From assembly GCA_030614005.1 (NCBI GenBank), contig JAUWKS010000001.1:141056-173055 (forward strand): a stretch of 32,000 nucleotides of DNA, in the 5' to 3' direction. A program made the position numbers and the translations under genes. The notes beneath the pieces are model-generated. The model saw nothing but the letters and a program-made list of their open reading frames with translations. It was not told the DNA's origin and did no database searches. The stretch is from Candidatus Heimdallarchaeota archaeon (lineage in GTDB: Archaea > Asgardarchaeota > Heimdallarchaeia > JABLTI01). Of the stretch, positions 2 to 26,995 are shown in pieces (position 1 is the stretch's first letter; each line of letters starts with the position of its first letter).

Positions 2-886
2 ATAAATGTAGGTGGAAGTTTAAACGCTCACAAGGATATTCAATGTGCTGAAGTTTCAGTAGGTGGTTCAATAACCATTGGAGGCAATGCTGCAATTGAA
101 ACAGCAGGTGCTGGTGGAACCATTAAAATTGCAGGCAGTAGCAACATCGGATCGATTAAAGTTGGTGGAAGCGTAACTCTTGAAGGAACAACTGAACTCG
201 ATAGCTTACGAGTTGGTGGAACTGGTAGAGTTAGTGGTGGCAAAATCGGGAAAGTCCGAATTGGTGGTTCATTCAAAGCATCTGAACCAATTGAAGTTGA
301 ATCAATTGATGTAGGTGGCACAACTAAATTAGAAAGTGATGCTAAAGTTGGTGTAGTAAGTGTTGGTGGTACCTTTAAAACAGGCGCAAACCTCGAATTT
401 GACACTATCAACGTAGGTGGAACTGTCTCAATTGGAGGAGATGCCACTGGAAAGAATCTATCTGTTGGTGGAGCTTTGAGCGCATCCGGAAACATGAAAG
501 TAGAAGGCAAAGTTTCTGTTGGTGGCACAATTAAAATTGAAGGTACTATTTTTGCAGATGAAATCTCTGTTGGAGGAACATTCCGCTCACAATTCGCTAA
601 AGCCAAATATTTCAAAATTGGTCGAAGAGGTGATGTCTATGGACCGGTACAAGCTGATAAATTGATTATCTCTGAAAGATCAAATGCAGAAGATCTCTTT
701 GGTGGAGAAATAATCATTGAGGAACGAGCAAGAGTAAGAAATGTATACGGCGAATCAATCTTCATTGAAAATAAAGCAAGAATTTCTGGCGATGTTGAGT
801 ATACTGATGATCTTTCTGTAGAAAGTGGAGCAGAACTCAAGAGAGAACCAAAGAAAGTCAAATCAATTAACTATCCAGATTATTAG
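2..886 (+). CDS. Bactofilin-like / polymer-forming cytoskeletal beta-helix repeat protein (5'-partial, at least 294 aa)
   Basis: The frame is open from nt 2 to TAG at 884-886; the ORF track shows only 476..886. Manual translation gives 12 tandem 16-18 aa repeats with a [VIA]GG[STA] core (INVGGSLNAHKDIQCAE, VSVGGSITIGGNAAIET, ... ISVGGTFRSQFAKAKY), then a bactofilin-like tail (ARISGDVEYTDDLSVESGA). Confidence 0.8.
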   Translation: MNVGGSLNAHKDIQCAEVSVGGSITIGGNAAIETAGAGGTIKIAGSSNIGSIKVGGSVTLEGTTELDSLRVGGTGRVSGGKIGKVRIGGSFKASEPIEVESIDVGGTTKLESDAKVGVVSVGGTFKTGANLEFDTINVGGTVSIGGDATGKNLSVGGALSASGNMKVEGKVSVGGTIKIEGTIFADEISVGGTFRSQFAKAKYFKIGRRGDVYGPVQADKLIISERSNAEDLFGGEIIIEERARVRNVYGESIFIENKARISGDVEYTDDLSVESGAELKREPKKVKSINYPDY

Positions 887-3534: not shown

Positions 3535-3623
3535 TGCAAGAGTTCTTAGTTATTCGCTATTATATTACTTTTTAAGTATGCATATAATGAAAATAGTGAT
3601 AATTTTTTCATTATTGTATCAAA

Positions 3624-7992: not shown

Positions 7993-8058
7993 ATATATAC
8001 AAACATTTAAGTTTTGAAACCAATCATCAAAAACAATTGGAATAATAGAGGTCTACGC

Positions 8059-9663
8059 GTGAAAATCTCTTCGGATTTCTTGGTTATTGGTTCTGGAATT
8101 AGCGGATTATCATTCGCTTTGAAAGCTGCAAAATATGGAACAGTATCTTTACTTAGTAAAGATAAAATAAACGAAGGTTCAACCCTTTATGCTCAAGGAG
8201 GTATTGCCACTGTTTTTGATGAGAAGGATTCTTTCAAAGAACATGTCAAAGACACTCTTTCTGCGGGAGCAGGTTTGTGTAGATCAGATATTGTTGAAGA
8301 AATTGTTTTAGCAGGACCCAAGCTTGTTCAGGAATTAATTGATAACTATAATGTTAAATTTTCTGAAGCGAATGGGAAATTTGATCTTGGTTTAGAAGGT
8401 GGACACTCGAAAAGACGAGTTCTCCATGCAGCAGATAGAACTGGTTTTGAAATTGAATCGAAAATGGTTGAAGCAGCTCGCAAAGAATCAAATATAACTT
8501 TTTATGAAGATCATGTAGCAATCAATTTGTTTGTTGACAACAACATTTGTATCGGCGCATATGTTCTAGAAAAAAGCAAGGGTGAAATTATTAATTTTCA
8601 AGCAAAAGTTACCACTTTAGCTACAGGCGGAGCAGGTAAGGTTTTTCTTGTTACTAGCAATCCAGATATCATCACAGGTGACGGAATAGCTATGGCCTAT
8701 CGTGCTGGAGCATCAATAATCAACATGGAAATGGTGCAATTCCATCCAACGTGTCTATATCATCCTCATGCAAAAACATTTCTCATCACAGAAGCAATGC
8801 GTGGTGAAGGAGCGAAACTTATTGATGTTAATGGCAACCAATTTATGAACAAATATCACCCAAAGAAAGAGCTTGCTCCGAGGGATGTTGTTTCTCGTTC
8901 AATTGATGCCGAATTAAAAATATCAGGTGCAGACAGTGTTTTTCTGGACATTACCCACAAAAATTCAGATTTCATTAAAAAGAGATTTCCTATGATTTAT
9001 GAAAAATGTCTGTCACATGGGATTGATATTACTGAGCAACCTATCCCAGTAATTCCTGCAGCTCACTATTCTATTGGTGGAGTAAAAGCGTCTACATCGG
9101 GTCAAACTTCAATAAAAAATCTTTTAGCTATTGGTGAAGTATCTTGTACTGGATTCAACGGTGCGAATAGATTAGCTAGTAATTCCCTCTTAGAGGGTCT
9201 CGTTGTTGGTGACAAAGCAGCAAAATATGCAGCCAGTTTAATGATGAGCAATGATACAGTTAAGAAACAACCATTTCCCTATTGGGATCCTGGCATGGCT
9301 GAAGACCCAGATGAAATGGTTATTGTTAAACAGAACTGGGAAGAAATTAGAAGATTTATGTGGAATTACGTCGGTATTGTTCGTTCAAATAATAGATTGA
9401 TTCGTGCAGGCAACAGACTCGAGATGGTTATGAAGGAAATAAACCAATTTTATTGGGACTTCAAAATACACCCATCTCTTCTTGATCTTAGAAATCTCGC
9501 TCAAGTAGCTGAACTAATCATTCGTTGTGCAAAAGGTCGAATGGAAAGTCGTGGAGTTCACTATTCTCTTGATTATCCTGAAAAAGGAAAAACACCTTAT
9601 AACACTGAATTACAGATTTCAATGGTAGATCGAGTACCACTAAATGATAATCTCTATGATTAA
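8059..9663 (+). CDS. nadB: L-aspartate oxidase
   Basis: FAD motif VIGSGISGL, STLYAQGGIA, EGGHSKRRVLH, QFHPT, LITEAMRGEG, ELAPRDVV, PAAHYSIGG, GANRLASNSLLE and ESRGVHY. GTG 8059 follows an AGAGG RBS. Confidence 0.95.
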   Translation: MKISSDFLVIGSGISGLSFALKAAKYGTVSLLSKDKINEGSTLYAQGGIATVFDEKDSFKEHVKDTLSAGAGLCRSDIVEEIVLAGPKLVQELIDNYNVKFSEANGKFDLGLEGGHSKRRVLHAADRTGFEIESKMVEAARKESNITFYEDHVAINLFVDNNICIGAYVLEKSKGEIINFQAKVTTLATGGAGKVFLVTSNPDIITGDGIAMAYRAGASIINMEMVQFHPTCLYHPHAKTFLITEAMRGEGAKLIDVNGNQFMNKYHPKKELAPRDVVSRSIDAELKISGADSVFLDITHKNSDFIKKRFPMIYEKCLSHGIDITEQPIPVIPAAHYSIGGVKASTSGQTSIKNLLAIGEVSCTGFNGANRLASNSLLEGLVVGDKAAKYAASLMMSNDTVKKQPFPYWDPGMAEDPDEMVIVKQNWEEIRRFMWNYVGIVRSNNRLIRAGNRLEMVMKEINQFYWDFKIHPSLLDLRNLAQVAELIIRCAKGRMESRGVHYSLDYPEKGKTPYNTELQISMVDRVPLNDNLYD

Positions 9664-10672: not shown

Positions 10673-11506
10673 TCATTTTGAAGCAATTATTTCGTACCAT
10701 TTCTTTAGGGATAGCTCTTTCCATTGGGGTCTTCGCGGTGGATAATAAAAAATCTTATCGGCCTCCAAAATTATCTCTTCTTCGGACTTTCCTTCCGCAA
10801 TCAATTCTCTAAAAAGATCAACCACCTTTTTTAGGTAAACATAAAACTCTTGGATTTTGTTTTTACTTGAAACAGATCCATGACCAGGTAAGTAATAATC
10901 AATATCAAGTGAAATATATTCTTCAAGTGCAGCAAGCCATGTTTCAGGATTAGCAGTAGGATCTCCACCCCATGGAAAACTATCTATAAACAAATTATCC
11001 CCTGCAGTTAGTGACTTATAATTAGGACAATAAACATAAGATGAACCTTCAGTATGTCCACCGGTTCGTTTGAAAATTACTTTGACATCTCCATCTGTAA
11101 TTTCCATTTGGTCATCAAATGTTTCAGTAGGCAGAACGATTTCTAATCCTTCAAGAGTTGAAGGATCTTCAGCATTTTTTATCATCTCAGCTATTTTATC
11201 AGGAGCCCAATTTGTTTTCAAACTTTCTTTCATTCTTTCTTCTGTATGTTTTGAAGAAATGATTTTACAATCTTTAAACACTTGATTACCAAATATATGA
11301 TCACCGTGTGTATGAGTAATTAAAAGATAGGTTGTTTTTTTACCTGTTTCTTTCTCAAGTTTTTCTCTAAATTCTTTTACTAAAGGAATATTCATACCTG
11401 AATCTATGAAGATTATTTGATTCGGTAAAACATAAGCAGCAACATTTCCACGTGTGCTTCCATCAGAAATTGAATAAACATTCTCAACGATTTTTTCTAT
11501 TGGCAT
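10673..11506 (-). CDS. Metallo-beta-lactamase fold hydrolase
   Basis: THTHGDH, GGHTEGS, AGDNLF and LPGHG motifs. Confidence 0.92.
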   Translation of the reverse strand: MPIEKIVENVYSISDGSTRGNVAAYVLPNQIIFIDSGMNIPLVKEFREKLEKETGKKTTYLLITHTHGDHIFGNQVFKDCKIISSKHTEERMKESLKTNWAPDKIAEMIKNAEDPSTLEGLEIVLPTETFDDQMEITDGDVKVIFKRTGGHTEGSSYVYCPNYKSLTAGDNLFIDSFPWGGDPTANPETWLAALEEYISLDIDYYLPGHGSVSSKNKIQEFYVYLKKVVDLFRELIAEGKSEEEIILEADKIFYYPPRRPQWKELSLKKWYEIIASK

Positions 11507-11905
11507 CTTTTACACATCTTTCACTTGTTTTTATCTACTATTTGTTAGTTTTTGTGAATATAATATTTTTCTGCTTGTTAAATTACCATTTGAAAATCAA
11601 TATTCAGTCTAGGTTATCAACAATATACAATAAGTATGAGATTCTTTTTCAAAGTTAAAACAATATTTCGGGAACTAGAAACCATTCCAATTCTCATCTG
11701 CTAACCAAACATCCATTAAATGATAATACTAGCTAAAGAATTGAGCTTATACCCTATAACTTTGTTGCTCTTTGAAAAGTCAGCTAATTTCCTCTTTAAT
11801 ATACTATTTAGTTCATTTATCAAAGAATCATCGAATACTTTCGGTTATCTCTCTCTAGATTATCTACTTATCTTAAAACTACACTTTAATAAAATAGTGA
11901 GCAAT

Positions 11906-12076
11906 ATGATTACTCAAATTACTAACTTTAAATGCCCAGGTTGCCTTAACGGTCACCTTACACAAGTAGATCGAATGATTCGATGCACATGTGGTTGGTG
12001 GGCATATGCAGAAGAAGAAAATGAAGAAGAAATATCAATACAGAGTGTAGAATTTATACCTGTTGTTGCTTCATAA
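11906..12076 (+). CDS. Small zinc-ribbon protein (56 aa) with acidic C-terminal part
   Basis: CPGC...CTCG cysteine pairs followed by EEENEEE. ATG 11906 follows a GTGAG RBS-like sequence; the upstream part of the 11720 ORF looks non-coding. Confidence 0.6.
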   Translation: MITQITNFKCPGCLNGHLTQVDRMIRCTCGWWAYAEEENEEEISIQSVEFIPVVAS

Positions 12077-12354
12077 TCTCTCGAGATACTAATTATGAAA
12101 TGGTTATATTGCTTTTCTTCAACTCTGAAAAGCTTTTTCTATTTTTTATTATCCTAATTTACTTCAATCATTCTCTTTTCTAAGAGAAAAAAAGTTCATT
12201 TTGGTAAAGGTTGGTTTATTCCGATAAATTTAATAGGTAATATTGTGAATCTAATTTAATTTCAAAAAATAATAATTATGTATTGATTATGGTAAAATAT
12301 AATAATGTGTCTAAATCACAATATCAAAATCTCATAGGAAGAGGTGCAAACAAA

Positions 12355-12621
12355 ATGGAATTTTGTGAAAAATGTTCAAATCTTATGAAGCCACTCCGGG
12401 AAGACAAAGTCAGTTATCTTGTCTGTTCGAATTGTGATAATAAGATTAAGGTCAATAAAACCAAAACTAAAGCTTATACAATTACACGAGAAATTAAACA
12501 TTCTCCTAAGGACAAGCTCGAAGTTACTGAGAAACGTCCATTAAAAGCTTTAACAGATGAAGAGAGAGAAGAGTTAGAAGATTCGTATGGGGATATGCTT
12601 GAACAAATGGATGTTGATTAA
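12355..12621 (+). CDS. TFS/RpoM-like protein with N-terminal zinc ribbon only and an acidic C-terminal helix (88 aa)
   Basis: MEFCEKCSNLM...LVCSNC matches the RPB9/RPA12/RPC11/TFS N-ribbon. There is no second Zn ribbon. GAGGTG RBS at 12341-12346. Confidence 0.8.
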   Translation: MEFCEKCSNLMKPLREDKVSYLVCSNCDNKIKVNKTKTKAYTITREIKHSPKDKLEVTEKRPLKALTDEEREELEDSYGDMLEQMDVD

Positions 12622-12728
12622 AAGTTAATTATACTTTAATTAACCATTTTCTCTTTTCAATTCTCACCTTTCTTTACCTTAGAATAACTATCGTTTGATT
12701 TTTAATTTAGAATATTCCTAACTAAGCT

Positions 12729-13922
12729 ATGAATAATACAATTCTAGCTGAGATTTTAGTGCGATATGGGGAGCTTGCTTTAAAGAGTCGTCCTGTTAGA
12801 AAATTCCTAGAAGCACGTTTAGTTAGAAACATAGTTAGAACGCTCAAAAATAATAATATTCATACTGATAAATTCAAAGTAGTAAATCATCGATCATGGG
12901 GAAGAATAATTGTTAGCTTATATAATTGGGATTATGCCCCTTTTGGTGATTATCAAGATAAAGAGCTTGAAGAAAGAGTAGTTTTCATTTTAGCACATCT
13001 TGTTAGTGGCATCACTTCTGTTAGTGCTTCTCATAAAATCAGTTCAGAACTCGAAGAAATTTTGGAATTTACTGTCAAATATTCATCCGAAAAATTACAA
13101 CCTTCTTCATCATTTGCTGTTCGAGTCAAACGAAACGGCAAACACCCATATTCCTCCAATGAGTTAGCAGGGAAGATTGGAGAAAAAATACTAGACACAA
13201 TTGGAAAAGAAAAGCAGCTTACTGTTAATTTAACAAATCCTGACTTTACACTTTCTCTAGAAGTAAAAGATGAATATGCTTTTATTTTTCATCAGAAAGA
13301 GATAGGCATTGGTGGTTTTCCCCAAGGATCACAAGGGAAAGTAGCGTCTATTTTAAGAGGGTCAGTAGAAGATGCAATTGCAGGATTTCTTTTGTGCAAA
13401 CGTGGATCCATTTCAATTCCAATTATATTTGAGCGAAAAGAGAAAGAAAGCTTTTCATCAAATTCAACAATGCTTGAAAAACATCTAGAATTGTATAGAA
13501 ATTTTCAACCTCTAAAAGAACATGTCCATTTCAAAGTTGATTTCGATGAAATATTAAAAGCAATCGGATTTAATAGACTACAATGCTCTACTTGTGATAA
13601 GGTCTGTATTGGTGTTACTGAAAGAATAATCAAAAATCAACATAAAGATGGCATTACATTAGGAAATTCCTCTGATGCTATTTTACTCAGAAATCCTGAG
13701 AAAAATTTCGCCACAGATTTTATTCCTATATACTATTCTCTCATTGCTCTTGACATCAAGGAACTTTTTCACCCATTTTCTAATGAAATGAAAAATAGTT
13801 TTTGCCTTGAGTATTGCCCTGGTTTTAAGAATCAAAAAAAGAATGAAATTGAACCACCATCTCCAGAGGAACTCTCTGAGATTGTGGCCAATGCAAATTA
13901 TACTATGGTTAAAAACCAATAG
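12729..13922 (+). CDS. thiI: ThiI-like THUMP-domain protein with degenerate PP-loop
   Basis: ILVRYGELALKSRPVR N-terminus; THUMP segment SFAVRVKR...VNLTNPD; GIGGFPQGSQGKV. The SGGxDS motif is replaced by RGSVED ahead of the conserved KRG. Confidence 0.75.
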   Translation: MNNTILAEILVRYGELALKSRPVRKFLEARLVRNIVRTLKNNNIHTDKFKVVNHRSWGRIIVSLYNWDYAPFGDYQDKELEERVVFILAHLVSGITSVSASHKISSELEEILEFTVKYSSEKLQPSSSFAVRVKRNGKHPYSSNELAGKIGEKILDTIGKEKQLTVNLTNPDFTLSLEVKDEYAFIFHQKEIGIGGFPQGSQGKVASILRGSVEDAIAGFLLCKRGSISIPIIFERKEKESFSSNSTMLEKHLELYRNFQPLKEHVHFKVDFDEILKAIGFNRLQCSTCDKVCIGVTERIIKNQHKDGITLGNSSDAILLRNPEKNFATDFIPIYYSLIALDIKELFHPFSNEMKNSFCLEYCPGFKNQKKNEIEPPSPEELSEIVANANYTMVKNQ

Positions 13923-13949
13923 CACGTCATTAGTTAGTTTGTTTGTTTG

Positions 13950-14186
13950 TTATGTAACGATTATTGGAGAAGGTATTTGATATATTCTCAATCGTCTGTC
14001 TTTTCCATCGCTTACTCTTATAACAAGACCTTTCTTCAATAACGAATCAAGTGCATAACCAAGTGTTCTATCTGGAAGATTTGTTTCATCCAATATACGA
14101 TATCGTGCCATTGGCCCTTTTCGTTCTAGAACGTAAAAAACAAAGTTCGCACTAGGAGGTAGTGTTTTAAGAATGTAGGCAAACAT
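13950..14186 (-). CDS. Small winged helix-turn-helix (MarR-like) transcription regulator
   Basis: LPPSANFVFYVL...ETNLPDRTLGYALDSLLKKGLV...DGKDRRLRIY is an archaeal wHTH pattern. Confidence 0.85.
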   Translation of the reverse strand: MFAYILKTLPPSANFVFYVLERKGPMARYRILDETNLPDRTLGYALDSLLKKGLVIRVSDGKDRRLRIYQIPSPIIVT

Positions 14187-14294
14187 GATTCCTCATCATA
14201 GCTGTATACTCCTAGTTAGTATTAGTTAATCTAAAGATTTAGACCTCCTTATTAAAAGATTTTCTAAAATCCAACAGAAAAAAGTTGCTATGAA

Positions 14295-16151
14295 TCATTT
14301 CTTTGATAATAAAATTTGGAATAAATCATCAAATTTGCCTAGCTCTTCTTTGAAATTTTCAAAGCTATACTTATCAGTGAAGTTGTCCACAGAACCAGAT
14401 ACGCAAGTTATTTTCTTCTTGGCAATATTTTCTAGATTTAATAATGTATCAGGTAAAACAGTAAATGATTCTCCCAAAAGAACAGGTGAGATGTTTTTCC
14501 CTAAAAGTATTTCAGCATAGTTCTCTATCTCCGGATGATTACCTAATGCCTCTTCTGAAGTATAAAATGATACAATAGCTGTTTTTTCCATTATCTGTTT
14601 GTTGAATTCTAGGAAAACATGACTTATCATATCTGATACTCCTTTTTCAAAAAGATTAGTCATATTGCCATAGGAGATAAAAGAATATTGATTATCCTTT
14701 TGTGAAAGAGTTGCATGTACTTCAGCTAATCTGGTCATACAAAAAAGCTTGCCAATTAAATGACCAAGTATTTTGAAATAATCAAACGAGCGTGATACAT
14801 TTCTTATGGCTTCTTCATAGTTACCTTGCTTTCGGTTAATCTCAGATAATGCACTGTAATATAGGGCATTTAGCTTGGGAGGAACTGGAGCAACCATTTC
14901 CTTTATTCCTCTGTTCAAAAAAAGTTCAGCCCGGGTTATCCTACCAATTAATGCACAGATCCAAGCGCTAAGCAAATTTATTTCAGACATTTTCAATTTA
15001 TTTTTATTTGCTTGGTAAATTTTACTTGCTTTTCTAGCAAACTTAAGTGATCGTAACAAAGAACCTCGATAGTCATCATCTCTGAAAGTATAGGCAGGAT
15101 AAGCCATCATTAGATATAATTCAGATTTTGCATGAGCTAATCTTCCTCTCAGATTAGCAACTGGTTCAGCAAGTGTAAATTCCTCTTCAATAATTCGTTC
15201 AATGTTTTCGTAGATGCCTAATGCCTTGTAAAACCAACCTTGCTGTGAATAAATAAATCCTAAATCGAATAGACCATCTACATGTAATTTTCTCATTAAA
15301 ATTGATTTACGAGTTCCTAAGCGCAGATACTTTATACCACGATTCAAATATTCTTCAGCAAGTGGTAATTTGTTATATGATACAAGATAACGAGCAGAAA
15401 TAAGCAAAATCATTGCCATTAAATTCATAATATCTTTTCTTTTATTTGAAGCAGCAATTTTGATACTTAAATTAAGATAATTCTTTAGATCTTCCAAAGA
15501 AATTTCAGGTGTAGTCTCGAGTTCAAGCAAACTAACAATTTCAAGTAATTCTACATCAATTTGATAATGGTCATTGAAATTATGTTTTGATGCATTATTC
15601 TTAATTACTTCAACGATGTTAAGAGTGTATTTTGGATTGATATTTAACCAAAACCAACCAAAACGAATCAAAACCATGAACAAGGATCTGTTTCCAGTTG
15701 CTTTTTCTTTTGAGGAACTTAACCGTTTAATAGAATCATTAGTAACAATTGTCAGTATTGTACTGTCAGTTATTTTAATGGGATGTAAATTCACTTCTTT
15801 ACAAATTTCAATTATTCGATCTTCTGACGCAGGTTCAAACCTATCAGTACCAATGATAATGAACCTTTGAGCAGAAATTTTCTCATTTATTTCTGAGACA
15901 AAATCTTTTCTAAAAAGAATCTCATTATCAGCTGTTATTTCAAGAGATGAAGCAAAAGTTGCTATCCAACCTTTCTCCTCTGCAATGCGAACATGATAGA
16001 GGATATTTTGTCGACTCATTTCTGTTGGAAAGACTTTTTCCGCTATATATCGAATGTGCTGTGTATTTGCAACACCAAGATATTTGACACAGGTGGCAAT
16101 AAATCTTGACCAGAAAAATTTAGTCCTTGATGCAAATACCATATGTTTCAC
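14295..16151 (-). CDS. TPR-repeat protein of unknown function with N- and C-terminal alpha/beta domains
   Basis: Central helical repeats (LFDLGFIYSQQGWFYKALGIYE; ALSEINRKQGNYEEAIRNVSRS). The terminal domains were not recognised. GTG 16151 or ATG 16142. Confidence 0.65.
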   Translation of the reverse strand: MKHMVFASRTKFFWSRFIATCVKYLGVANTQHIRYIAEKVFPTEMSRQNILYHVRIAEEKGWIATFASSLEITADNEILFRKDFVSEINEKISAQRFIIIGTDRFEPASEDRIIEICKEVNLHPIKITDSTILTIVTNDSIKRLSSSKEKATGNRSLFMVLIRFGWFWLNINPKYTLNIVEVIKNNASKHNFNDHYQIDVELLEIVSLLELETTPEISLEDLKNYLNLSIKIAASNKRKDIMNLMAMILLISARYLVSYNKLPLAEEYLNRGIKYLRLGTRKSILMRKLHVDGLFDLGFIYSQQGWFYKALGIYENIERIIEEEFTLAEPVANLRGRLAHAKSELYLMMAYPAYTFRDDDYRGSLLRSLKFARKASKIYQANKNKLKMSEINLLSAWICALIGRITRAELFLNRGIKEMVAPVPPKLNALYYSALSEINRKQGNYEEAIRNVSRSFDYFKILGHLIGKLFCMTRLAEVHATLSQKDNQYSFISYGNMTNLFEKGVSDMISHVFLEFNKQIMEKTAIVSFYTSEEALGNHPEIENYAEILLGKNISPVLLGESFTVLPDTLLNLENIAKKKITCVSGSVDNFTDKYSFENFKEELGKFDDLFQILLSKK

Positions 16152-16264
16152 TACCCAATTTTGACAATCTAGTATTAATATGGAATATGAAAGTTAGTTA
16201 GTATTTCATACTACGTGTTATTAATTTAACGTCCTAACTCCATATTAAACCATTTTATTCAAAA

Positions 16265-19200
16265 TCATTTAGGAATGTAACACACAGCAGCAACAAAGTC
16301 GTTATTTTGTGATAACTGAGCTTTTAGCTGTATACCAGACTTACTCTTAGCAAATTGTTTGGTTATTTTATTTGCTTCAGCGGGCAATTTAGTAGGATCA
16401 ACTTGAACGGTAATACTTTTGTTTTGTAATTCAACGACCTCTAAATCGTGAAGATCAATATTCAACCCGATACCCAAAACTTTTGAGGCTGCTTCTTTCG
16501 CAGCCCAAATTCTAGTAAGAAAGTCATCAGCAACATCTTTATTCTGAATTTTAAGAAATGATTGCTCTTGTGGACCTAACAATTCATCAGTGAGTGAGCT
16601 ATCTCTTGGCTCGATTATTTCCAAATCAATACCAATATTGAATGTTGAGCTAACTAATGCAACAGCATAACCATTGCTATGAGTTATCGAAACAAAGGTT
16701 TTCTTCTTACCTTTGTTTGTGACTGCGATTGGTTTTCCAAGATTACTTTTCTCAATCAAAATATCTTTATTTTCCAGTTTTGGCATGAGATTTCGGAGTG
16801 CCGTTTTTGCTGCAATCACTCCTGCTAACCATTCGGTTTTGCGTTTCTCAACTTTTATGGAATGATATTTTTCAAGCTCATCTGTTTGTAGATTGCTCGT
16901 TAAGTATTCAGAGTCGGATTTCAATTGCTCGTTGATCTGCTTTACACTAACTGCTTCAAGTGAAGAATCTTTAGGAACAGTAAATAATTGCTTTACTTGT
17001 TTCAATCGAATATTCTCAACAATTTCAAGACTTGCTGCTAAAGGTATTTTTACTGTGTTGTAATCTTCTGCTTTAAGGATTACTTCTCCAGTTTTTGTCA
17101 GCACCTCAAAATCATAAGTAGATCCAAAATCATTTTCACCTTTCTTGACACCACGTATTATTTCAGGTTCTCCAGCAACATCAAAGTAAGTAAGTTGTTT
17201 GACAGAATAAGGAAGACCAAGTCGGTCATCTTTTATTATATCTAAAAGACCCATCGCTTGGAATGCTGCTTCAATTGCTAATGGATTAGCAATTAATTCT
17301 TTAATATCCCAACTAAACTGATTATTTATTGGGATAGAACCAGCACCAATGATTTCTTTGTCAATGGTATTTATTGAGTGAAGTACTTGGAATAATGAAC
17401 CATGTGGAAGAATCTTATAGATGTCTCCTTTATTGATTAATTGTTTCTTGGTTAATTTTACCATTGATTTTTCCGCAACTTTTCGTGGACCAAAGACAAC
17501 AGTACCTTTGAAATGAAGTTTAGTATCACCTAGTTTCTTTCCATCTTTTATGAAATCAGATTCAATACGAACTTCTGGTGTTTTGCCATAAGATATTCGA
17601 GCTTTAAGTGCTCGTGGGTTATCTTTGAGAAATTTGATTGCAGAGTTGAACTCAATATTGTCAAAACCACTTAGCACTTTCTTTGGATAAGCAAGCTTTG
17701 CTAATTCGGCAAACAATTCTATACCCATTACTCCAGGTAGAAATGGAACAGCATCAAATCGATGGTGATTTAGATAGAGGTCAGTTGTAAGTGAGAAATC
17801 TCGTTCTGTTGAAATAGATCCGTCGAAGTTTCGTTTAATACTACCAATCATTGGATATACTTTGTGATCAACAAGAACTGCCGGTAATGGTGATTCTAGT
17901 AGAACACCTAATTTTCCAGCGATAACAACCTCAGCATCTTGTCCGGATTCAAGTTCATTGATGAAGGCATTTATTCCCTCATTCACTTGAATTGGGGTAA
18001 CTCCGGCATATTCCAGAATAGTCATTATTGAACCTCTGGTTGCCATTCCCACATCTGCCCAAGCAGACCAACAGATAGAAGTTGCACGAATGCCTTTTGC
18101 TCTTAAATTCCAGCAACTCTTTGAGAGATAATCATTCGCTGCAGAATAATCTACTTGTCCGCCATTTCCATATCGTCCGGCAACAGAAGAGAAACATATG
18201 ATGAATTGAATTTTCTTCAAATCAATATTGTTGATTAAATTATCATATCCAATTGCTTTAACGTCATAGACTCGATTAAAATCAACAAGCTCTTTATCAG
18301 CAATGAATTTAGATACTTCCAATCCAGCACCGTGAACAATACCTGTTATTGAGGTTTTGAAGTCTGAAACAACTTTTAGTAAAGTTTTTTCCATTTTCTC
18401 AGTATTAACAACATCTACAGAATAATACTTCGTTTTTGAACCCAAGGAAACAAGTTCTTGTACTCCTTTCTGGATGGCAATAGCTTTAGCTGTTTTTGAC
18501 CAAGCTTTCTCGATTTTAACTGGAGTAACTTTATCATCTGTTTCTTTCATTTTGGCAATCATAGTGTTTTTGAGTTCAGTTAAACCAGCTTCATCAAGTG
18601 CAAGTAGTTCTTTAATATTCTTTGGAATTTTCGTTCGACCAAATAATGCCAATTGTGCTTGATATTTTTCGGCAATTTTCTTAGTGATTTCAAAGGTTAT
18701 TCCTTGAGCACCACCAGTAATGACTATTAAATCATCTTTAGTTGGTTCGTATTTCTCTGATGCTTCTACCAATTCCTCAACAGTTGTAATGAAGATTTGA
18801 CGTTTTCCAGCAGAATTGTATACTACTTCTACTGAACCATCTCCAGAGCATAATTCATCAATCGCTAGTTTTGGCTTTTGACAGCTAACAAATTTAACAG
18901 TACCACCAACAAACTCTCGAGCAAGTGCTTTCGTAAAACCTGTCAAAGAGCCAACAATTGGATTGGCTTTTGCTTGCTTCCAACCAAGATTTTCAAATTG
19001 GTTATCTATAGCTAAAACAATTGGTTTCTTACTAAAGAACAAATACCGACTGCAAACGAAAAAGCTTCGAGCAACGAAATCGTGTTTAGTTTTATCATTT
19101 GTTTTTGGAGCGATGAAAACCATACCATCAACTTGCTGTTCTGGCAATGCTGCTTGAAGCTTATCAAGTGATTTCATTGACTTGAGATGGATTGTTTTCA

Positions 19201-22200
19201 CAACTTGAGCTTTTTTCTTCTCCAAAATTGCTACAATTTCATTAGTAAATTGGTTATTATCTCCAATAACAATAAATCGCTTTTGTTTGAGATCCAAACC
19301 CTTAGTTTTAATTTGAGAAGGAATCAATTGCAATAACATTCTTTTTGCAGGAACTTTTTCGATTGGCTTCTTTGCTGCTTGACCAGCAACGTGAGCTGAT
19401 TTTTCTCCAGAGCCAATTCGTTCAGAAACATAATGAGCAATCTTAGTAATCGTTGAATAATCTTGAATACGAATTCCTTCTTCTCGAGGCAAATCGAATT
19501 TTGATCGAAGAATACCAAAAATTTCTGCCTGTTTAACAGTATCAATACCAAGGTCTTCTTCAAGTTCCATATCTGCTTCCAACATGTCTGTTGGATAACC
19601 AGTTTTTTCTGAAACAAGATCAATAATTGTTTTAGAAATCTCACTAATAGAAATTGAAGATGTTCCAGTTGCGGCAGTAACTCCTACAGGTGTAGAACCT
19701 ACACCGCCCATTTTTGTTGCAAGATATTCAGCAATTTTATTTACAGAATAATAATCTTGAATTCTAACTCCTTCCTCTCGAGGCAAATTATACTGTGAAC
19801 GCAACATTCCAAATAGTTCTGCTTGTTTAACAGTATCAATACCAAGATCTTCCTCAAGATGCATATCTGCTTCAATCATATCTGCGGGGTAACCTGTCTT
19901 TTCGGAAAGCAAGGAGATAATCATAGTAACAATTTCACTATTAGATGCAGAAACAACAGATGATTTTGGAGCAGTGGTTTGTTTTAAAGCTTTAATTACA
20001 TTGGGGTCTTCAGTCATTCTCAAGGTATTATTAACAATCTCCATAGTTGAGCGACTGCCACCAATAGTTGCTAACCATTGATCATAATCCTTACTGTCAA
20101 ATCGTTCACTAGCTGTATTCAAACGATACAAAACCATAGCTAATTGTGAGCCAAAACCTGCTGAAAAGCGCATAGCATATTTAATATCATATTTTCCACC
20201 CTTAGAAAGATTGAGCACGCCCAATTCAGGGTCTACTTCTTTGAAATTTGCTACTGGAGGAATAATTCCTTTTTGGAGCATCTTAACTGCAACAACATCC
20301 TCAATTCCAGCTCCCATCGCATGACCTGTAAATCCTTTTGTGTTAGCAATAACGACTTTATCTAACGAAGCACCAAAAGTTTTTCGCAGAGCGTCTATTT
20401 CTGCAGAAGCACTGCCACCTCGAGCTGGCGTATAGGTTTCATGACTAACAAAAACTAATTGTTTCGCAATATCATCTCGAGAGATATTGTACTTCTTCTC
20501 AATTTTTGTCATGAAATTATTCATTTGAGATGAAATGTGTTCACGATCTAGTCGCGTTCCATGGAATGCTGAATTTACGAGATGCGTACCCATCAAATCA
20601 ACAATTGGTTTTACTCCTCTTTCATTCATTGCAGATTCTGATTCCAAAACAATGCCAACCGCTCCCATACCAACGATCATTCCGTGTCTTCTGTTATCGA
20701 AAGGCAAAGCAGCTTCTTCCACTATTTCAGAAGTTGTTGCTGCTCCAACTGCTAGGAATCCCGCTCCAAACCACTGGAACGTTTCATCACTTGTTATATC
20801 ATCTGCGGCTATTACAATTACTCTTTTGCACCGACCATTTCGAATCCAATCTTCAGCGATACCAATAGCTAGTGTAGTTGAAGAGCAAGCAGCGTTTACT
20901 TGTGTATTTGGTCCTCGTGCGCGAATAAATTGAGCAAATTGAGAATGGCCCATTGAAAGAACTTCGAATAAGAACTTACGACTGAAAATGTATTTCGAGT
21001 TTTTATCACCATCAAGTGCGACTTTATTCTTTTCAAACCATATCTTCACTTTTTCTCTGGAAGCTTTATTTGAGATTTGTTGAATTAATTCATCAAAAAG
21101 TAGAATAGTTTCTTCCTTGTGCTTTGATGCATATTTATCTGCTAGAGATTGAGAAACAATTGAAATTAGATTGTTACTTACAGGAAAAGCAGAAGCGAAA
21201 ATAATGCCGGTCTCATCTCTCATTGACTCTGGTAATACCCAACCTTTTGAGATTTCTTTTCCAACAGATGTTTTAATTTTCAAGGGCATTAAAGGAATAC
21301 CAGCATCTCTAAGTGCTTCAATTCCTGCTGCTAATGCTAATTGAAATGTTATATCAAAAATTTCAGTAAATTCGGCTTGCACGCCATAGTCTTTTGTAAG
21401 ATCAAACTCTCCTTTTTGAGCTGCAAGTTTAATGACTTCACTTACATCAGTTATCGATTGGAATTGTGCCCCTTTAACAGCATCTTTCACTAATCGGACA
21501 ATATTCTTTTCAACGATCTTTTCTCTCAGCTGAGAGGAAGTTTTTTCTATGAAATTCATACCGGAAAGAATTGCATCGAAATTAGAATCATCGAATACCT
21601 TACGATTTTTACCAGGTAACCCGATTGCTATACCAGTTACTCCTACGGCATCTGTATTAATATTCAGTCTGTCTATTTCTTTTTTAGTCTCTAATGCCTT
21701 TGCGATTATATTCTGGTATGTATCATAACCTACTTTAAGAAATGCATTGATAGCTGGCGCTTGTAATTTTAAGTACTCACTAAAGTCATCATTTTTAGTT
21801 ATCGTTGCTAAATCACCAAAAGCTAACACATCAAATGGAGATTCTTTTGTAATGACTTTAGTCTTACCGATAGAAGGAGCAATTGATGTAATTGGTACTG
21901 CTTTCTTTTTGTAGAATCTCTTTGTCGGATTTCTAAACTCTTCACTATAGATCGAATCATCTTTGTTAGGAATTTTTAAAGGATAACCAAAAGCACCGAG
22001 AGCAGCAAGCACTTCATTGAGATGTTGCATAGCTCCTCTCTTGGGATGGTTTGATGCTAGAGCAACAAAATCTTTCTTACCTTCAAGAATAGATTTAGCA
22101 AAACTTGTTAGAACATATTTGGGACCAATTTCAATGAATGTCCGTACTCCGTATTCCTCATACATATTTTTAATCTGCTTCATCCATTCGACAGGAGAAT

Positions 22201-25200
22201 AAACTTGTTTACAGAGTAGATCAATAATTTCTTGCCTTGTTTTTGGATAAATTCCTCCAGTTACATTGCTCGAAAGAGCAATTGTAGGTTTGCTATATGT
22301 AAGCTTCTCTAGTGATTCTCTTAGGAATTTCTCAGCAGGAGCAACAATTTCTGAATGAAATGCTGCAGAAACGGGTAAAGGAATTGCGGTTATGCCTTTT
22401 TCAATGAATATCTTGATTGCTTCAGTTATTGCAGGAGATGCTCCTGAGATTACAGTTTGACTTGGAGTGTTTTTATTTGCAGCTATTGCATAACCTTTGA
22501 CCTTTTTCAAAACGTCATCAACTGTTTGAGGACCCGCACTTACTGAAGCCATCATACCATTATCATCAGAATCAAAAAGAGACATCGCTTTGCCTCTAGG
22601 GATAACAGCCATTAAGCCATCTTTGAAGCTAACAATTCCAGATGCCACAAGTGCAGCATATTCACCTAGACTATGACCTGCAACAAAATCTGGTTTTATA
22701 CCAAACGAACGCAATAATCGATATATTCCAATATTGACAGCAAATATTGCTGGTTGAGTCACTTCAGTTTTTCTCAATAATGCTTTTGACTCGGCATCAT
22801 CTTTTCCTATAGCAAAGATTATTTCTGTTAGGGAAAATCCAAGCTCAGCTTGAGTTACTTCATCAGCTTCTTTGAAAACTTCTTTTACAATATCATACTT
22901 GTCCCAGAGCTCTTTACCCATACGAACGTATTGGCTACCTTGTCCTGGAAACATAAAAGCGATTTTTCCGAGTGTATGATCTTCACCATAGAATATTCCT
23001 TTATTTCTTAGTATCAATCTCTTAGCTTTATCTTGTTGTCCAGATATTGCTGAATCAATTAAAGAGGGTAAATCATCCAGTGATTTAGATACAATACCTA
23101 TTCGTTTCTTCTGAGAGAGAGCACCCATTGTTTCTTGACTAATATCATGTATACGACTTCCTGTTCCATTCTTATCAAAAGTACTCTTTGGTATTTTTGT
23201 TTTGAATGCTTCCAAATTTTTAAGTAAAGCAACATCAGAAGCACCTCCAATAAAGAGGGGTTCAGTTTCTAATACAATATTTTTATCGTAATAATCCTTC
23301 CAAGAGGATTCATCAAAAACAGTGGTAAAACCTTGTGCATCAGCTGATTGAGAAGTCATTTGACTGATACGTCTAGTTAATGATTCTAATTCTTCTTTTG
23401 ATAATAATTTTGGCAAATGGCCAATAGTTTCTCCAGGAATATATTCTTCCATAATAGCATGATAATTTGTTCCACCAAAACCAAAAGAAGAAATTCCTGC
23501 GATTCGATGTCCAGATGTTGGTTGAGGCCAATCCTTTGTTTCTGTAATAACATAAAATGGGGAAGTATCCCAAGCAACTTTTGGATTTGGTATTTCAAAA
23601 TTGGCTGTTGGGGTGAATTTCTTATGATAAATTGCAAGTGCAGTTTTGATTATCGAGGCAATACCAGCAGCACTTTTTAGATGACCAATTTGACTTTTAA
23701 CGGAGCTGATGACTATTGATGCTTTCGGAGAATTTTCTGCCATCTCATTCAAAACAGCCATTTCAACTACATCACCTACACCAGTAGCAGTTCCATGAGC
23801 TTCTAAAAATTGTATATCAGAGAAGGATACACCCGCTTGATCAAATGCTCTTTGAATTGCTAATTGTTGTCCAATGGGGTTTGGTGCAGTAATGCCTTTA
23901 CCTTTTCCATCACTAGCAGCACCTAATCCTCTAATAACAGCATAAATTCTATCACCATCTCTTTCTGCATCAGAAAGACGTTTAAGAACAACAAAACCTG
24001 ATCCTTCACCCATAACAAAGCCATTTGCCCTTGCATCAAATGGATATGAACCTTCAGCAGAAATCGCACCAATTTTGGCAAATTTAACAAAAATGGATGG
24101 GTCTAATGAACAATCTGATCCTCCACAAAGAACCGTATCATATTCATTATCTAGTAATCCTTTAACTGAAACACTCAAAGCAGCTAAACTTGATGCACAT
24201 GCAGCATCACAAGTCATATTCTTGCCGCGAAGATTAAAAACATTAGCAATTCGTCCAGCAATAACATTAGATAATTCTCCTGGCATCGAATCTTCATTTA
24301 TTGCCATTAATTCCTTATCATAAATTGTTTTTAATTCTTCTTTGACTTTCCTCCAAACATCTTCCTTAATATCACTGAAAGAAGCGCATTTTTCGAAAGA
24401 TCGATATGACTCTGCTAGAAAGATTCTTCGATTGTAATCGACTCGAATTGAACCACCCATACTATTTCCAACGATAGTTGCAGTTCGAGAATTATCTTTA
24501 TCCAAAATATTAGCATCAATTAGTGCTTCTCTAGCAGCTACTAAAGCAAATTGTTGAACGCGATCAATCTTCTGAGCAACTTTTGGAGGAATTTTAAATT
24601 CCAATGAGTTAAATTTGAAATCATCAATTGTTGCAGCAATTTTTGCGTAAGTTTTATCGGGTTCAAAAGGGTCAGGAGAATAATAGAGACTATGGTCATT
24701 AGACCATCTTTCTTTTGGTATTTCTTTTATTGAATAAACTCCAGAAATGATATTTTGCCAATATTGGTCAATGTTCAATGCATCTGGAAAAACTCCACCC
24801 AAACCAATAATTGCAACACCTTCACCTTGAAGAATATCATCGGGTATTGGAGTCAATTCTTGAACAATTTGAGGTTCTACTGCTTTGCTAAATTCTTCTT
24901 TTGATTCGAATTGTTCAGCAAAACTTTTTGCTTTGGTACTAACAACTTTTTTTGACTCTTCGATTAATTCCATATGAAGATCCTTAACAGTACGAATGCT
25001 TCGCAAACTACCAACAATTTGGCCAATCATATAATTTCCTTTTTCATATTGACCCTTCTCATCAATTGGCATAAACCTATTTGGTTTATCGTCTTCCCCA
25101 TCTGGGTTCCAAATTTCTCCTAATGCAGCAATACGTGTAGATCCTAGATTGTCTCTTTCGAATTGGTGTTTACGATCTTTAAGGCTCATACCTTCCTTTA

Positions 25201-26995: not shown

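What the first reader, a model, noticed from the sequence alone, without database searches (positions are those of the whole stretch)
16265..26995. Single-chain type I FAS/PKS-like megasynthase in an apparently archaeal (Asgard-like) genome
Seen: one 10.7-kb ORF with recognisable domains, ER (aa ~13-315), ER (~330-680), KS (726-1185), AT (~1345-1670), KS (1783-2291), 2x ACP, KR, DH and PPTase. Catalytic motifs are intact in both KS, the AT, KR, DH and PPTase. Established: archaea build membranes from isoprenoid ethers and generally lack ACP-dependent type I FAS/PKS, while bacterial PUFA synthases split these functions over PfaA/B/C/D/E. Inference: this is a complete reductive chain-elongation cycle in one polypeptide, making fatty acids or long-chain polyketide lipids. 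It sits within about 2-4 kb of archaeal-type genes (wHTH, ThiI-like, TFS-like), which is relevant to the lipid divide and eukaryogenesis if the host is Asgard.
Basis: partly seen in the sequence, partly recalled or inferred. Interest (0 to 1): 0.95.

Follow-up and report, generated by a model that had tools for sequence, protein, structure and literature searches.

The report
Asgard archaeal one-protein fatty-acid synthase
A Heimdall-group Asgard archaeon really does encode, in one 3,576-residue protein next to the genes that make malonyl-CoA, every activity needed to build fatty-acyl chains on a carrier protein. The gene is native and shared by many Asgard lineages, so it offers a concrete, testable source of bacterial or eukaryote-type lipids in the closest archaeal relatives of eukaryotes.

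Summary
Window 16265-26995 (- strand) is one 3,576-aa ORF with the order pseudo-ER, FabK/PfaD-type ER, KS1, malonyl-AT, KS2 (Cys-His-His), 2 ACP, KR, DH, Sfp-type PPTase. All catalytic motifs are intact and dN/dS is 0.12.

The host is archaeal. The gene lies on the genome's longest contig (173 kb) with Topo VI, the universal archaeal KH protein and archaeal adenylate kinase. Depth is even in four metagenome runs from three studies.

It is not a one-off. 69 of 399 Asgard genomes carry it, including 12/12 of its own family and the closed genomes assigned to Heimdallarchaeum and Ca. Harpocratesius. It always sits beside acyl-CoA carboxylase genes, usually with a lipase-like alpha/beta hydrolase.

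The core (KS-AT-KS-ACPn-KR-DH) is the uncharacterised "Type R secondary lipid synthase" catalogued in bacteria in 2011. The Asgard form adds a fused PPTase and a fused ER. Family-wide, the carrier domains have Thr where Ser normally bears phosphopantetheine.

The same lineages have expanded DegV/FakB (19 copies here) and PlsY (6). This family lacks recognisable G1P dehydrogenase and GGGP synthase.

This scan met the family before on other DNA (Heimdallarchaeum aukensis, Marine Group II archaea, many bacteria). The product is unknown; a saturated fatty acyl chain is most likely. I class it as a new variant of a known kind, of high interest.

The parts
16265..26995 (-). Whole megasynthase ORF, 3,576 aa (P0001)
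   Evidence: dN/dS 0.116 against the 88-90% identical same-genus copy
26021..26968 (-). ER1 (aa ~10-325): degenerate FabK-like TIM barrel. It lacks the catalytic His (R/K/E/L/F/I/M instead) and the QGPM motif in all homologues. Inferred role: structural pseudo-partner of ER2.
24896..26020 (-). ER2 (aa ~326-700): FabK/PfaD-type FMN enoyl reductase. QGPM and ECGGH are invariant in the 18 ER-bearing homologues.
   Evidence: (TIGR03151 FabK)
23426..24832 (-). KS1 (aa 722-1190): PfaA/PKS-type ketosynthase with a Cys-His-His triad
21986..22966 (-). AT (aa ~1344-1670): malonyl-type acyltransferase (GHSLGE, AAFHS)
   Evidence: (FabD TIGR00128, 238 bits)
20111..21658 (-). KS2 (aa ~1780-2295): diverged FabF-like ketosynthase with intact Cys2037, His2185 and His2225. 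It is not a chain-length factor.
19691..19948 (-). ACP1 (aa ~2350-2435): LGIDT motif, with Thr2388 (19832-19834) at the Ser position
19391..19654 (-). ACP2 (aa ~2448-2535): LGIDT motif, with Thr2486 (19538-19540)
17996..19318 (-). KR (aa ~2560-3000, catalytic part 2758-2981)
16976..17878 (-). PKS-type (PS-DH) dehydratase (aa ~3040-3340): His3078 and ExxxQ
16268..16948 (-). Sfp/HetI-type phosphopantetheinyl transferase fused at the C-terminus (aa ~3350-3576)
27057..28655 (-). Acyl-CoA carboxylase carboxyltransferase subunit (12S/PccB type), 61 nt upstream on the same strand
   Evidence: adjacent in all 21 loci examined
28828..30312 (+). Biotin carboxylase
30267..30803 (+). Biotin carboxyl carrier protein
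30820..31581 (+). Lipase/esterase-like alpha/beta hydrolase with conserved Ser108-Asp198-His227. Candidate chain-release enzyme. It lies directly downstream of the synthase in families f3, f19 and f20.

Best explanation
This is a native, functional Asgard member of the Pfa-like 'Type R' two-ketosynthase lipid synthase family. It has been extended into a self-sufficient iterative type I fatty-acyl synthase.

Proposed mechanism, step by step:
1. The adjacent three-subunit biotin carboxylase makes malonyl-CoA (inferred).
2. The fused PPTase puts phosphopantetheine on the hydroxyl residue of the two carrier domains, here threonine (inferred, not shown).
3. The AT loads malonyl units.
4. KS1 and KS2 condense. 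They possibly divide the work by chain length (inferred).
5. KR, the PKS-type DH and the single active FabK/PfaD-type ER (ER2) fully reduce each round. The inactive ER1 copy probably serves as ER2's pseudo-dimer partner.
6. There is no FabA-type isomerising DH, so the expected product is a saturated, or at most hydroxylated, long acyl chain.
7. There is no thioesterase domain. Release probably falls to the conserved lipase-like alpha/beta hydrolase in the cluster.
8. The free acid could then enter glycerolipids through the strongly expanded DegV/FakB and PlsY proteins of this lineage (inferred from co-distribution and DegV-PlsY gene pairs). The acyl-phosphate-forming kinase has not been identified.
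For: - Domains and motifs.
- Purifying selection in every domain: dN/dS is 0.05-0.19 per domain and 0.116 overall.
- Archaeal contig: Topo VI A and B, the arCOG04150 KH protein and archaeal adenylate kinase are on C71. Contig GC is 33.4% against 33.5% for the genome. ARAGORN (run with intron detection) called introns in 13 of about 25 tRNA genes in the genome.
- Contiguity: depth is even and there are no joints in 4 runs from 3 studies. One independent contig spans the synthase N-terminus together with CT, BC and BCCP.
- Distribution: 69/399 Asgard genomes carry it, 12/12 in its own family, including closed genomes (Ca. Harpocratesius named).
- Cluster: CT, synthase, ABH, BCCP and BC stay together across five families.
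- Trees: the Asgard copies lie on one side of a branch with 100% support, and the ER-fused forms make one group with 98% support.
- Family identity: KS2 is 51-56% identical to Roseiflexus, Chloroflexi and Myxococcales proteins with the same architecture. This matches Type R in PMC3098273.
- Release enzyme: the catalytic triad is conserved and the nearest folds are lipases, esterases and PKS release hydrolases.
- Lipid context: the genome has 6 PlsY and 19 DegV copies. DegV occurs only in this class of the phylum. DegV and PlsY form adjacent pairs.
Against: - No product, no expression data and no proof of carrier modification exist.
- Every ACP has Thr where all characterised carriers have Ser. 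Activity therefore depends on an untested Thr-phosphopantetheinylation.
- The bacterial Type R relatives are called 'secondary' lipid synthases, and their product is unknown.
- The CT subunit is of the PccB/MmdA type, so acetyl- versus propionyl-CoA specificity is open.
- FakA, PlsX, PlsC and GpsA were not found in this genome. The route from chain to glycerolipid is therefore incomplete.
- CarS is retained, so isoprenoid lipids are probably still made.
- The gene's tetranucleotide profile is at the 98th percentile and its GC at the 97th percentile of same-sized genome chunks.
Confidence: 0.7

Rival explanations
1. The same enzyme chemistry serves a specialised 'secondary' lipid or reduced polyketide and not bulk membrane fatty acids. 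Candidates include a very long-chain, hydroxylated or otherwise modified alkyl compound, a storage or surface lipid, or a signalling molecule.
For: - The family was catalogued as a secondary lipid synthase, in bacteria that also have FAS II.
- Tandem ACPs and two ketosynthases are typical of Pfa-like specialised systems.
- Only 12/135 genomes of family f20 and 3/14 of f19 carry it, as expected for an accessory trait there.
- CarS, and in f2-f7 also G1PDH, are retained.
Against: - It is nearly universal in five Heimdall-class families, in a conserved chromosomal setting.
- It has a dedicated malonyl-CoA supply.
- An ER is fused on, giving full reduction.
- It is co-distributed with expanded DegV and PlsY.
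- Its own family lacks G1PDH and GGGPS.
Confidence: 0.2
2. The gene is an inactive relic. With threonine in place of the carrier serine, the ACPs cannot be loaded and the protein does nothing.
For: - Both ACPs carry Thr.
- From general knowledge, Ser-to-Thr changes in characterised ACPs block modification by common PPTases.
Against: - Thr is the family rule: 386 Thr against 5 Ser in 118 proteins from archaea and bacteria.
- Ser and Thr coexist at this position in the closed genome G016, assigned to Heimdallarchaeum.
- dN/dS is 0.18 in the ACPs and 0.19 in the PPTase.
- All catalytic residues are conserved across copies only 42-67% identical.
Confidence: 0.03
3. The gene is bacterial contamination or a chimeric join in a metagenome-assembled genome.
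For: - Some near relatives are deposited under bacterial or other labels, namely Zixibacteria, Bathyarchaeia and Methanobacteriota.
- The gene's composition is at the upper edge for the genome.
Against: - Archaeal markers lie on the same 173-kb contig.
- Depth is even and no joints appear in independent runs.
- The same flanking genes occur in same-genus genomes and on the 'Zixibacteria'-labelled contig, so that label is a binning error.
- The gene is present in closed Asgard genomes.
- All Asgard copies lie on one side of a branch with 100% support.
Confidence: 0.02

Closest known systems
'Type R' secondary lipid synthase cluster (Shulse & Allen 2011, PLoS One 6:e20146, PMC3098273; Koribacter, Solibacter, Elusimicrobium, Roseiflexus)
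   Same: - One PfaA homologue with KS-MAT-second KS ('CLF')-tandem ACP-KR(-DH).
- A dedicated PPTase.
- An acetyl-CoA carboxylase gene in the Koribacter cluster.
- KS2 is 51-56% identical to Roseiflexus, Chloroflexi and Myxococcales proteins.
- The same Thr-type ACP motif.
   Different: - The PPTase is fused to the C-terminus instead of being a separate gene.
- A FabK/PfaD-type ER plus a dead ER copy is fused to the N-terminus.
- There are only 2 ACPs.
- The full three-subunit carboxylase and a lipase-like hydrolase are in the cluster.
- The host is an Asgard archaeon.
- The 'CLF' keeps its Cys-His-His triad.
PUFA synthase PfaA-E of marine Gammaproteobacteria (TIGR02813 PfaA; PfaD ER; PfaE PPTase)
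   Same: - A KS-MAT-ACPn-KR-DH backbone.
- An FMN-type trans-ER relative.
- An Sfp-type PPTase.
- Iterative Pfa-like logic. The best NCBIfam hit is PfaA at 943 bits.
   Different: - The score is below the PfaA cut-off of 1010 bits.
- There is no PfaB and no PfaC, and no FabA-type DH/isomerase, so no cis double bonds are expected.
- All functions are in one chain.
Enediyne polyketide synthase PKSE (e.g. SgcE, CalE8; recalled from general knowledge, not tested here)
   Same: - A KS-AT-ACP-KR-DH-PPTase order with a self-activating C-terminal PPTase.
- Release by a discrete hydrolase.
   Different: - PKSE has one KS, one ACP and no ER, and makes a conjugated polyene.
- This protein has a second KS, tandem Thr-ACPs and an ER.
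Fungal and CMN-bacterial type I FAS
   Same: - An FMN-dependent TIM-barrel ER.
- A PPTase at the C-terminal end of a KS-containing chain.
- A complete reductive cycle.
   Different: - The domain order and domain families differ.
- No FAS-specific Pfam domains are hit.
- There is no MPT and no double hot-dog DH of the FAS type.
CoA-dependent, ACP-independent archaeal fatty acid synthase complex of Sulfolobus (bioRxiv 10.1101/2024.07.05.601840)
   Same: It is proposed as a source of fatty acids in archaea.
   Different: It is an unrelated enzyme set (thiolase/DUF35, SDR, MDR) working on CoA esters. The present enzyme is carrier-protein dependent and of the bacterial type.

Membership tests
Type R secondary lipid synthase (Shulse & Allen 2011) | One PfaA-like polypeptide with the order KS-MAT-second KS/CLF-tandem ACP-KR | tested here: met
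   Domain order. The same order is seen in 21 Asgard loci.
Type R secondary lipid synthase (Shulse & Allen 2011) | Sequence kinship with a named Type R member (Roseiflexus) | tested here: met
   KS2 is 51% identical over 97% of its length to Roseiflexus proteins P0231 and P0236. They fall in the same family tree.
Type R secondary lipid synthase (Shulse & Allen 2011) | 3-6 tandem ACPs and a separate downstream PPTase gene | tested here: not met
   This protein has 2 ACPs and a fused PPTase. Other Asgard copies have 2-5 ACPs, all with a fused PPTase. This is a variant of the family and not the catalogued form.
PfaA (NCBIfam TIGR02813) | Score at or above the curated cut-off | tested here: not met
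   943.1 bits against a cut-off of 1010.1, in 4 separate stretches.
PUFA synthase system | PfaC-type KS-CLF plus FabA-like DH/isomerase domains | tested here: not met
   No FabA-type domain appears in the protein. Pfam scans of the window's ORFs show none either.
Fungal/CMN type I FAS | FAS-specific domain order and FAS-type DH/MPT modules | tested here: not met
   Pfam finds only PKS-type and Pfa-type domains. Only the NMO-type ER and the ACPS domain are shared.
Enediyne PKSE | KS-AT-ACP-KR-DH-PPTase with a single KS and no ER | not tested
   The resemblance in the C-terminal half is recalled from knowledge of the family. No PKSE model or sequence was compared here.
Functional carrier protein (PP-binding) | Conserved Ser that bears 4'-phosphopantetheine | tested here: not met
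   Thr2388 and Thr2486 align with the Ser of the PigH ACPs and of a free ACP. Across the family the count is 386 Thr to 5 Ser. Whether Thr is modified cannot be tested with these tools.
Asgardarchaeota host (Heimdall class) | Archaeal information-processing markers on the same contig, and kinship with named Asgard genomes | tested here: met
   Topo VI A/B, arCOG04150 and archaeal Adk are on C71. The genome shares a phylum with G133, which is Ca. Harpocratesius repetitus.

The most novel reading that the evidence does not exclude
In this Heimdall-class family (12/12 genomes) the synthase would be the de novo source of the cell's main membrane acyl chains. The chain would pass from the megasynthase to hydrolase release, then to DegV/FakB-type carriers (19 paralogues), an unknown kinase and PlsY (6 paralogues), ending in fatty-acyl glycerol-phosphate lipids. 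This would occur in a lineage that has lost recognisable G1P dehydrogenase and GGGP synthase. It would be a living archaeal intermediate across the 'lipid divide'. It would run on carrier domains that bear phosphopantetheine on threonine, a linkage not known for any carrier protein.
Probability: 0.25. Interest if true: 0.95.

Novelty: new variant of a known kind. Interest (0 to 1): 0.8.

Why it matters
Current texts say archaea lack type I FAS and almost always lack ACP and ACP synthase (bioRxiv 10.1101/2024.07.05.601840). The origin of fatty-acyl lipids in the eukaryotic lineage is unresolved.

Here the closest archaeal relatives of eukaryotes carry several relevant traits as conserved chromosomal features:
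- a complete carrier-protein-dependent fatty-acyl synthase with its own activating enzyme and malonyl-CoA supply;
- an expanded fatty-acid-binding (DegV) repertoire;
- an expanded acyl-phosphate:glycerol-phosphate acyltransferase (PlsY) repertoire.

Earlier papers could not explain the PlsY homologues. The paper that described the closed Heimdallarchaeum and Harpocratesius genomes does not mention the gene.

The enzyme is a single ORF that should activate itself. That makes it an unusually convenient entry point for finding the unknown product of the whole Type R family. It also allows a direct test of whether a PPTase can load threonine.

Tried and rejected
- **Exhaustive representative search.** The search with KS1-AT was swamped by multi-modular PKSs, whose summed scores outrank single-module relatives. 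It gave no nearest-neighbour information.
- **SSU rRNA.** None was found in the MAG, so taxonomy rests on protein markers and kinship codes.
- **RNA evidence.** No RNA holder was listed for the gene, so nothing can be said on expression.
- **Protein Atlas feature search for KS2**. It pointed to diatom and fungal KS clusters. I treated this as a lead only. The PDB sequence search shows KS2 is FabF-like.
- **Apparent GpsA hit.** The hit turned out to be a ketopantoate reductase.
- **FakA.** The FakA-like_C hits are just DegV genes, and no Dak2 domain was found.
- **Biotin ligase.** Relatives have one next to the cluster. It is not present in the last 400 nt of the window, which is the contig end.
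- **Literature searches.** Searches for Asgard or Heimdallarchaeia with PKS, FAS, PUFA synthase or ACP found only generic BGC surveys. Searches for Thr-phosphopantetheinylation and for a Marine Group II PKS found nothing relevant.
- **GGGPS absence.** I considered reading it as loss of ether lipids. I rejected that as a conclusion because CarS is retained throughout the class.
Full report
**1. The object**

The window holds one uninterrupted ORF on the minus strand, 16265-26995, of 3,576 residues. Pfam and NCBIfam find the following domains:
- two nitronate-monooxygenase/FabK-type barrels in residues ~10-680;
- a ketosynthase at 725-1190;
- an acyltransferase at 1347-1639;
- a second, weaker ketosynthase signal around 1780-2295;
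- phosphopantetheine-binding domains around 2359-2540;
- a KR at 2758-2981;
- a PKS-type dehydratase from 3057;
- a 4'-phosphopantetheinyl transferase at 3382-3542.

The best whole-family match is PfaA (TIGR02813) at 943 bits, below its cut-off of 1010.

**2. Catalytic residues**

I aligned the protein with 20 full-length Asgard homologues taken from genomes. The alignment shows invariant catalytic residues in these domains:
- KS1 (Cys-His-His);
- the AT (GHSxG and xAFH, the malonyl signature);
- KS2 (Cys2037, His2185, His2225);
- KR (Ser, Tyr);
- DH (His, ExxxQ);
- the PPTase (DxE, WxxKEA);
- the second ER barrel (QGPM, ECGGH).

KS2 aligns best to FabF structures, with its Cys and both His in register. 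It is a real condensing enzyme and not a chain-length factor.

The first ER barrel has lost the His and the QGPM motif in every homologue. It is probably a structural partner for ER2 (inference).

The gene is under purifying selection. dN/dS against the 88-90% identical same-genus copy is 0.116 overall and 0.05-0.19 for each domain.

**3. Threonine in the carrier domains**

Both ACPs read LGIDT. The Thr aligns exactly with the phosphopantetheine Ser of the solved PigH di-ACP and of a free ACP.

This is not a peculiarity of this gene:
- All 2-5 ACPs of the Asgard homologues have Thr, except two of the three in the closed genome G016, assigned to Heimdallarchaeum, which have Ser.
- Among 118 family proteins from archaea and bacteria the count is 386 Thr, 5 Ser and 2 Ala.

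Two observations argue that Thr is the modified residue: Ser and Thr interchange at this position, and both the ACPs and the PPTase are under purifying selection. This is an inference that needs mass spectrometry.

**4. Is the host archaeal, and is the gene native?**

The window is the last 32 kb of the longest contig of a 3.62-Mb MAG. The contig is C71, 173,055 bp. The MAG is 90% complete with 3.4% contamination.

- **Markers.** About 100 kb upstream on the same contig lie DNA topoisomerase VI subunits A and B, the universal archaeal KH protein arCOG04150 and an archaeal adenylate kinase. Three of these four (Topo VI B, the KH protein and the adenylate kinase) score above an NCBIfam cut-off; the best Topo VI A model (354 bits, cut-off 424) falls below it.
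- **tRNA introns.** ARAGORN (run with intron detection) called introns in 13 of about 25 tRNA genes in the genome.
- **Composition.** Contig GC is 33.4%, against 33.5% for the genome. The gene itself is at 36.0% GC. Its tetranucleotide profile is at the 98th percentile of same-sized chunks. This is a mild deviation, expected for a Gly/Ala-rich enzyme gene, but I note it as counter-evidence.
- **Independent assemblies.** Contigs of four metagenome runs from three studies (marine sediment and cold seep) cover 11000-30900 at even depth, with no joints. One contig about 1% different from the window spans 23468-30900, which is the synthase N-terminus plus CT, BC and BCCP.
- **Synteny.** The flanking genes (617-aa TPR protein, ThiI-like, TFS-like, MBL) occur in the same order in same-genus genomes at 44-87% identity. 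They also occur in that order on a contig deposited as 'Zixibacteria', which is therefore a binning error.

**5. Distribution**

I searched 399 genomes of the same GTDB phylum with residues 330-1190 (ER2 plus KS1). The search finds the gene in 69:

| Family | Genomes with the gene | Note |
|---|---|---|
| f1 (own) | 12/12 | includes the window's genome |
| f2 | 1/1 | |
| f3 | 26/30 | includes two closed genomes |
| f4 | 2/3 | |
| f5 | 11/12 | form without ER |
| f19 | 3/14 | a different class |
| f20 | 12/135 | |

G133 in f19 is the near-closed genome (deposited as one 4.36-Mb contig; Wu et al. call it a dual-contig assembly) of Ca. Harpocratesius repetitus FW102, class Lokiarchaeia. Named relatives are 'Candidatus Heimdallarchaeota archaeon' MAGs from independent studies.

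In every locus examined the carboxyltransferase gene directly precedes the synthase and the BC and BCCP genes are adjacent. In f3, f19 and f20 the alpha/beta hydrolase follows immediately. In relatives a biotin-protein ligase also belongs to the cluster.

**6. Family identity**

A region-restricted search with KS2 shows one large family with the core KS-AT-KS-ACPn-KR-DH. Members fall into three groups:
- Bacteria (Roseiflexus, other Chloroflexota, Myxococcales/Polyangiaceae, Spirochaetota) have neither a fused PPTase nor a fused ER.
- Thermoplasmatota archaea have a fused PPTase.
- Asgard archaea have a fused PPTase and, in most, the N-terminal ER pair.

This is the 'Type R' secondary lipid synthase of Shulse & Allen (2011). 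They described it as KS-MAT-CLF-ACP(3-6)-KR plus a PPTase gene, found in Koribacter, Solibacter, Elusimicrobium and Roseiflexus. An ACC gene sits in the Koribacter cluster, and no product is known.

Trees of the KS1-AT-KS2 region agree. I used FastTree on 138 rows and IQ-TREE with LG+C20 PMSF on 37 rows. Both place all Asgard copies on one side of a branch with 100% support. The ER-fused copies form one group with 98% support. Thermoplasmatota and bacteria lie on the other side.

The trees are unrooted, so no direction of transfer is claimed. Only some rows carry organism names. Unnamed rows were grouped by architecture and clade.

**7. Release and downstream fate**

The protein has no thioesterase domain. 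The cluster's 253-aa alpha/beta hydrolase has an invariant Ser108-Asp198-His227 triad.

Its model (pLDDT 80) is closest to a thermostable lipase in complex with a monoacylglycerol intermediate. Further matches are PET46, feruloyl esterases and monoacylglycerol lipases. The trans-acting PKS release hydrolases GrgF and DcsB also appear. A chain-release role is plausible but inferred.

The genome also has these features:
- It encodes six PlsY-family proteins. The PlsY copy on C71 scores below the TIGR00023 cut-off.
- It encodes 19 DegV/FakB-family proteins. None of the four archaeal control genomes has either family.
- Within the phylum, DegV is confined to the window's class. It is found in 57/57 genomes of f1-f5, 12/24 of f6-f7 and 0/317 elsewhere.
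- PlsY is found in 57/57 genomes of f1-f5, with 4-8 copies per genome in f1.
- DegV and PlsY form adjacent same-strand pairs in G000 (C103) and in at least five same-genus genomes (coordinates).
- A PlsY gene lies about 1 kb from the cluster in both closed genomes assigned to Heimdallarchaeum.
- PlsC, PlsX, FakA (Dak2) and GpsA were not found.

A route from free acid through DegV and acyl-phosphate to PlsY is thus suggested but incomplete.

**8. An unexpected correlate**

- **GGGP synthase (PF01884).** It gives strong hits in almost every Asgard family. It gives none in f1 (0/12) and only one strong hit among the 57 genomes of f1-f5. It is also absent from the three closed or near-closed genomes that carry the synthase.
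- **G1P dehydrogenase (NF002022).** It is present in f2-f7 but in none of the 12 f1 genomes.
- **Direct check.** tblastn with same-class G1PDH and with Asgard GGGPS sequences finds nothing in this genome; the best E-value is 0.24.
- **CarS.** CDP-archaeol synthase is retained throughout the class.

I therefore do not conclude that ether lipids are lost. These results show only that no recognisable gene for either step was found. This is recorded as unexplained.

**9. Literature**

- In the searchable library no paper describes this gene in Asgard archaea. Generic BGC surveys only state that Asgardarchaeota encode 'PKSs'.
- The paper on the closed Heimdallarchaeum and Harpocratesius genomes discusses ester-lipid genes but mentions neither 'polyketide' nor this synthase.
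- A 2024 preprint states that archaea encode neither FAS II nor FAS I and nearly all lack ACP and ACP synthase.
- Reviews leave the role of Asgard PlsY open.
- Public annotations call the protein 'SDR family oxidoreductase' or 'acyltransferase domain-containing protein'.

**10. Earlier notes of this scan**

The scan has met this family before on other DNA. Instances include a closed Heimdallarchaeum aukensis genome (e1-547189), Marine Group II archaea (e1-4460071, e1-1243423) and many bacteria (for example e1-4085577). The earlier notes gave the same Type R assignment and reported the same Thr carrier observation. I reached both points independently before reading those notes.

- the phylum-wide distribution;
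- the Asgard grouping in the trees;
- the three fusion grades;
- the contiguity test;
- the selection test;
- the hydrolase fold;
- the co-distribution with DegV and PlsY, and with missing G1PDH and GGGPS.

**11. Verdict**

The thing is a new variant (ER- and PPTase-fused, archaeal) of a known but uncharacterised enzyme family. Its product, the chemistry of its Thr carriers and its link to membrane lipids remain to be shown. All three are directly testable with a single self-activating ORF.

Noticed in passing
G000 genome-wide; e.g. C103:19301-19912 (PlsY) and C103:20025-20873 (DegV): The genome has 19 DegV/FakB-family paralogues and 6 PlsY-family paralogues. DegV and PlsY form adjacent same-strand pairs here and in same-genus genomes. 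Within the phylum, DegV occurs only in the window's class.
   Followed up: partly
G000 and the 11 other genomes of its family (f1): No recognisable G1P dehydrogenase (NF002022) or GGGP synthase (PF01884) was found in any of the 12 genomes, while CarS is present. GGGPS is also missing from nearly all of f2-f5 and from closed Heimdallarchaeum and Harpocratesius genomes.
   Followed up: partly
window 19832-19834 and 19538-19540; family-wide: Thr replaces the phosphopantetheine Ser in essentially all carrier domains of the whole Type R family, bacterial members included: 386 Thr against 5 Ser.
   Followed up: yes
proteins P0155, P0162, P0200 (public records): Close relatives of this Asgard gene are deposited under the labels 'Zixibacteria', 'Bathyarchaeia' and 'Methanobacteriota'. 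Synteny and identity to Asgard genomes show these are MAG binning or taxonomy errors.
   Followed up: yes
G000:C71:90626-90718 (outside the window): ARAGORN calls a tRNA with anticodon CTA ('tRNA-Pyl'), the only tRNA on the 173-kb contig. Whether a pyrrolysine system is present was not checked.
   Followed up: no
G000:C71:126184-127947 and 128613-131828 (outside the window): A FadD-like long-chain acyl-CoA ligase lies about 30 kb from the synthase. Next to it is a LacZ-type beta-galactosidase that scores above a bacterial equivalog cut-off.
   Followed up: no
window 2-886: An open-ended ORF at the window start carries a bactofilin domain.
   Followed up: no
window 8014-9663: An L-aspartate oxidase (NadB) scores above the NCBIfam cut-off. 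It keeps its place in the syntenic block next to the synthase in relatives.
   Followed up: no
G000:C72:152-1363: An IS605 OrfB / TnpB (Cas12f-like) transposon gene lies 3 kb from the genome's single CarS gene.
   Followed up: no
Asgard family f5 and Kariarchaeaceae-labelled proteins (L057-L059, P0230): These Asgard copies have 4 ACPs and the fused PPTase but no ER. No FabK-like gene lies within the loci fetched, which extend about 2-6 kb beyond the synthase on either side. Their enoyl reductase is unidentified.
   Followed up: partly
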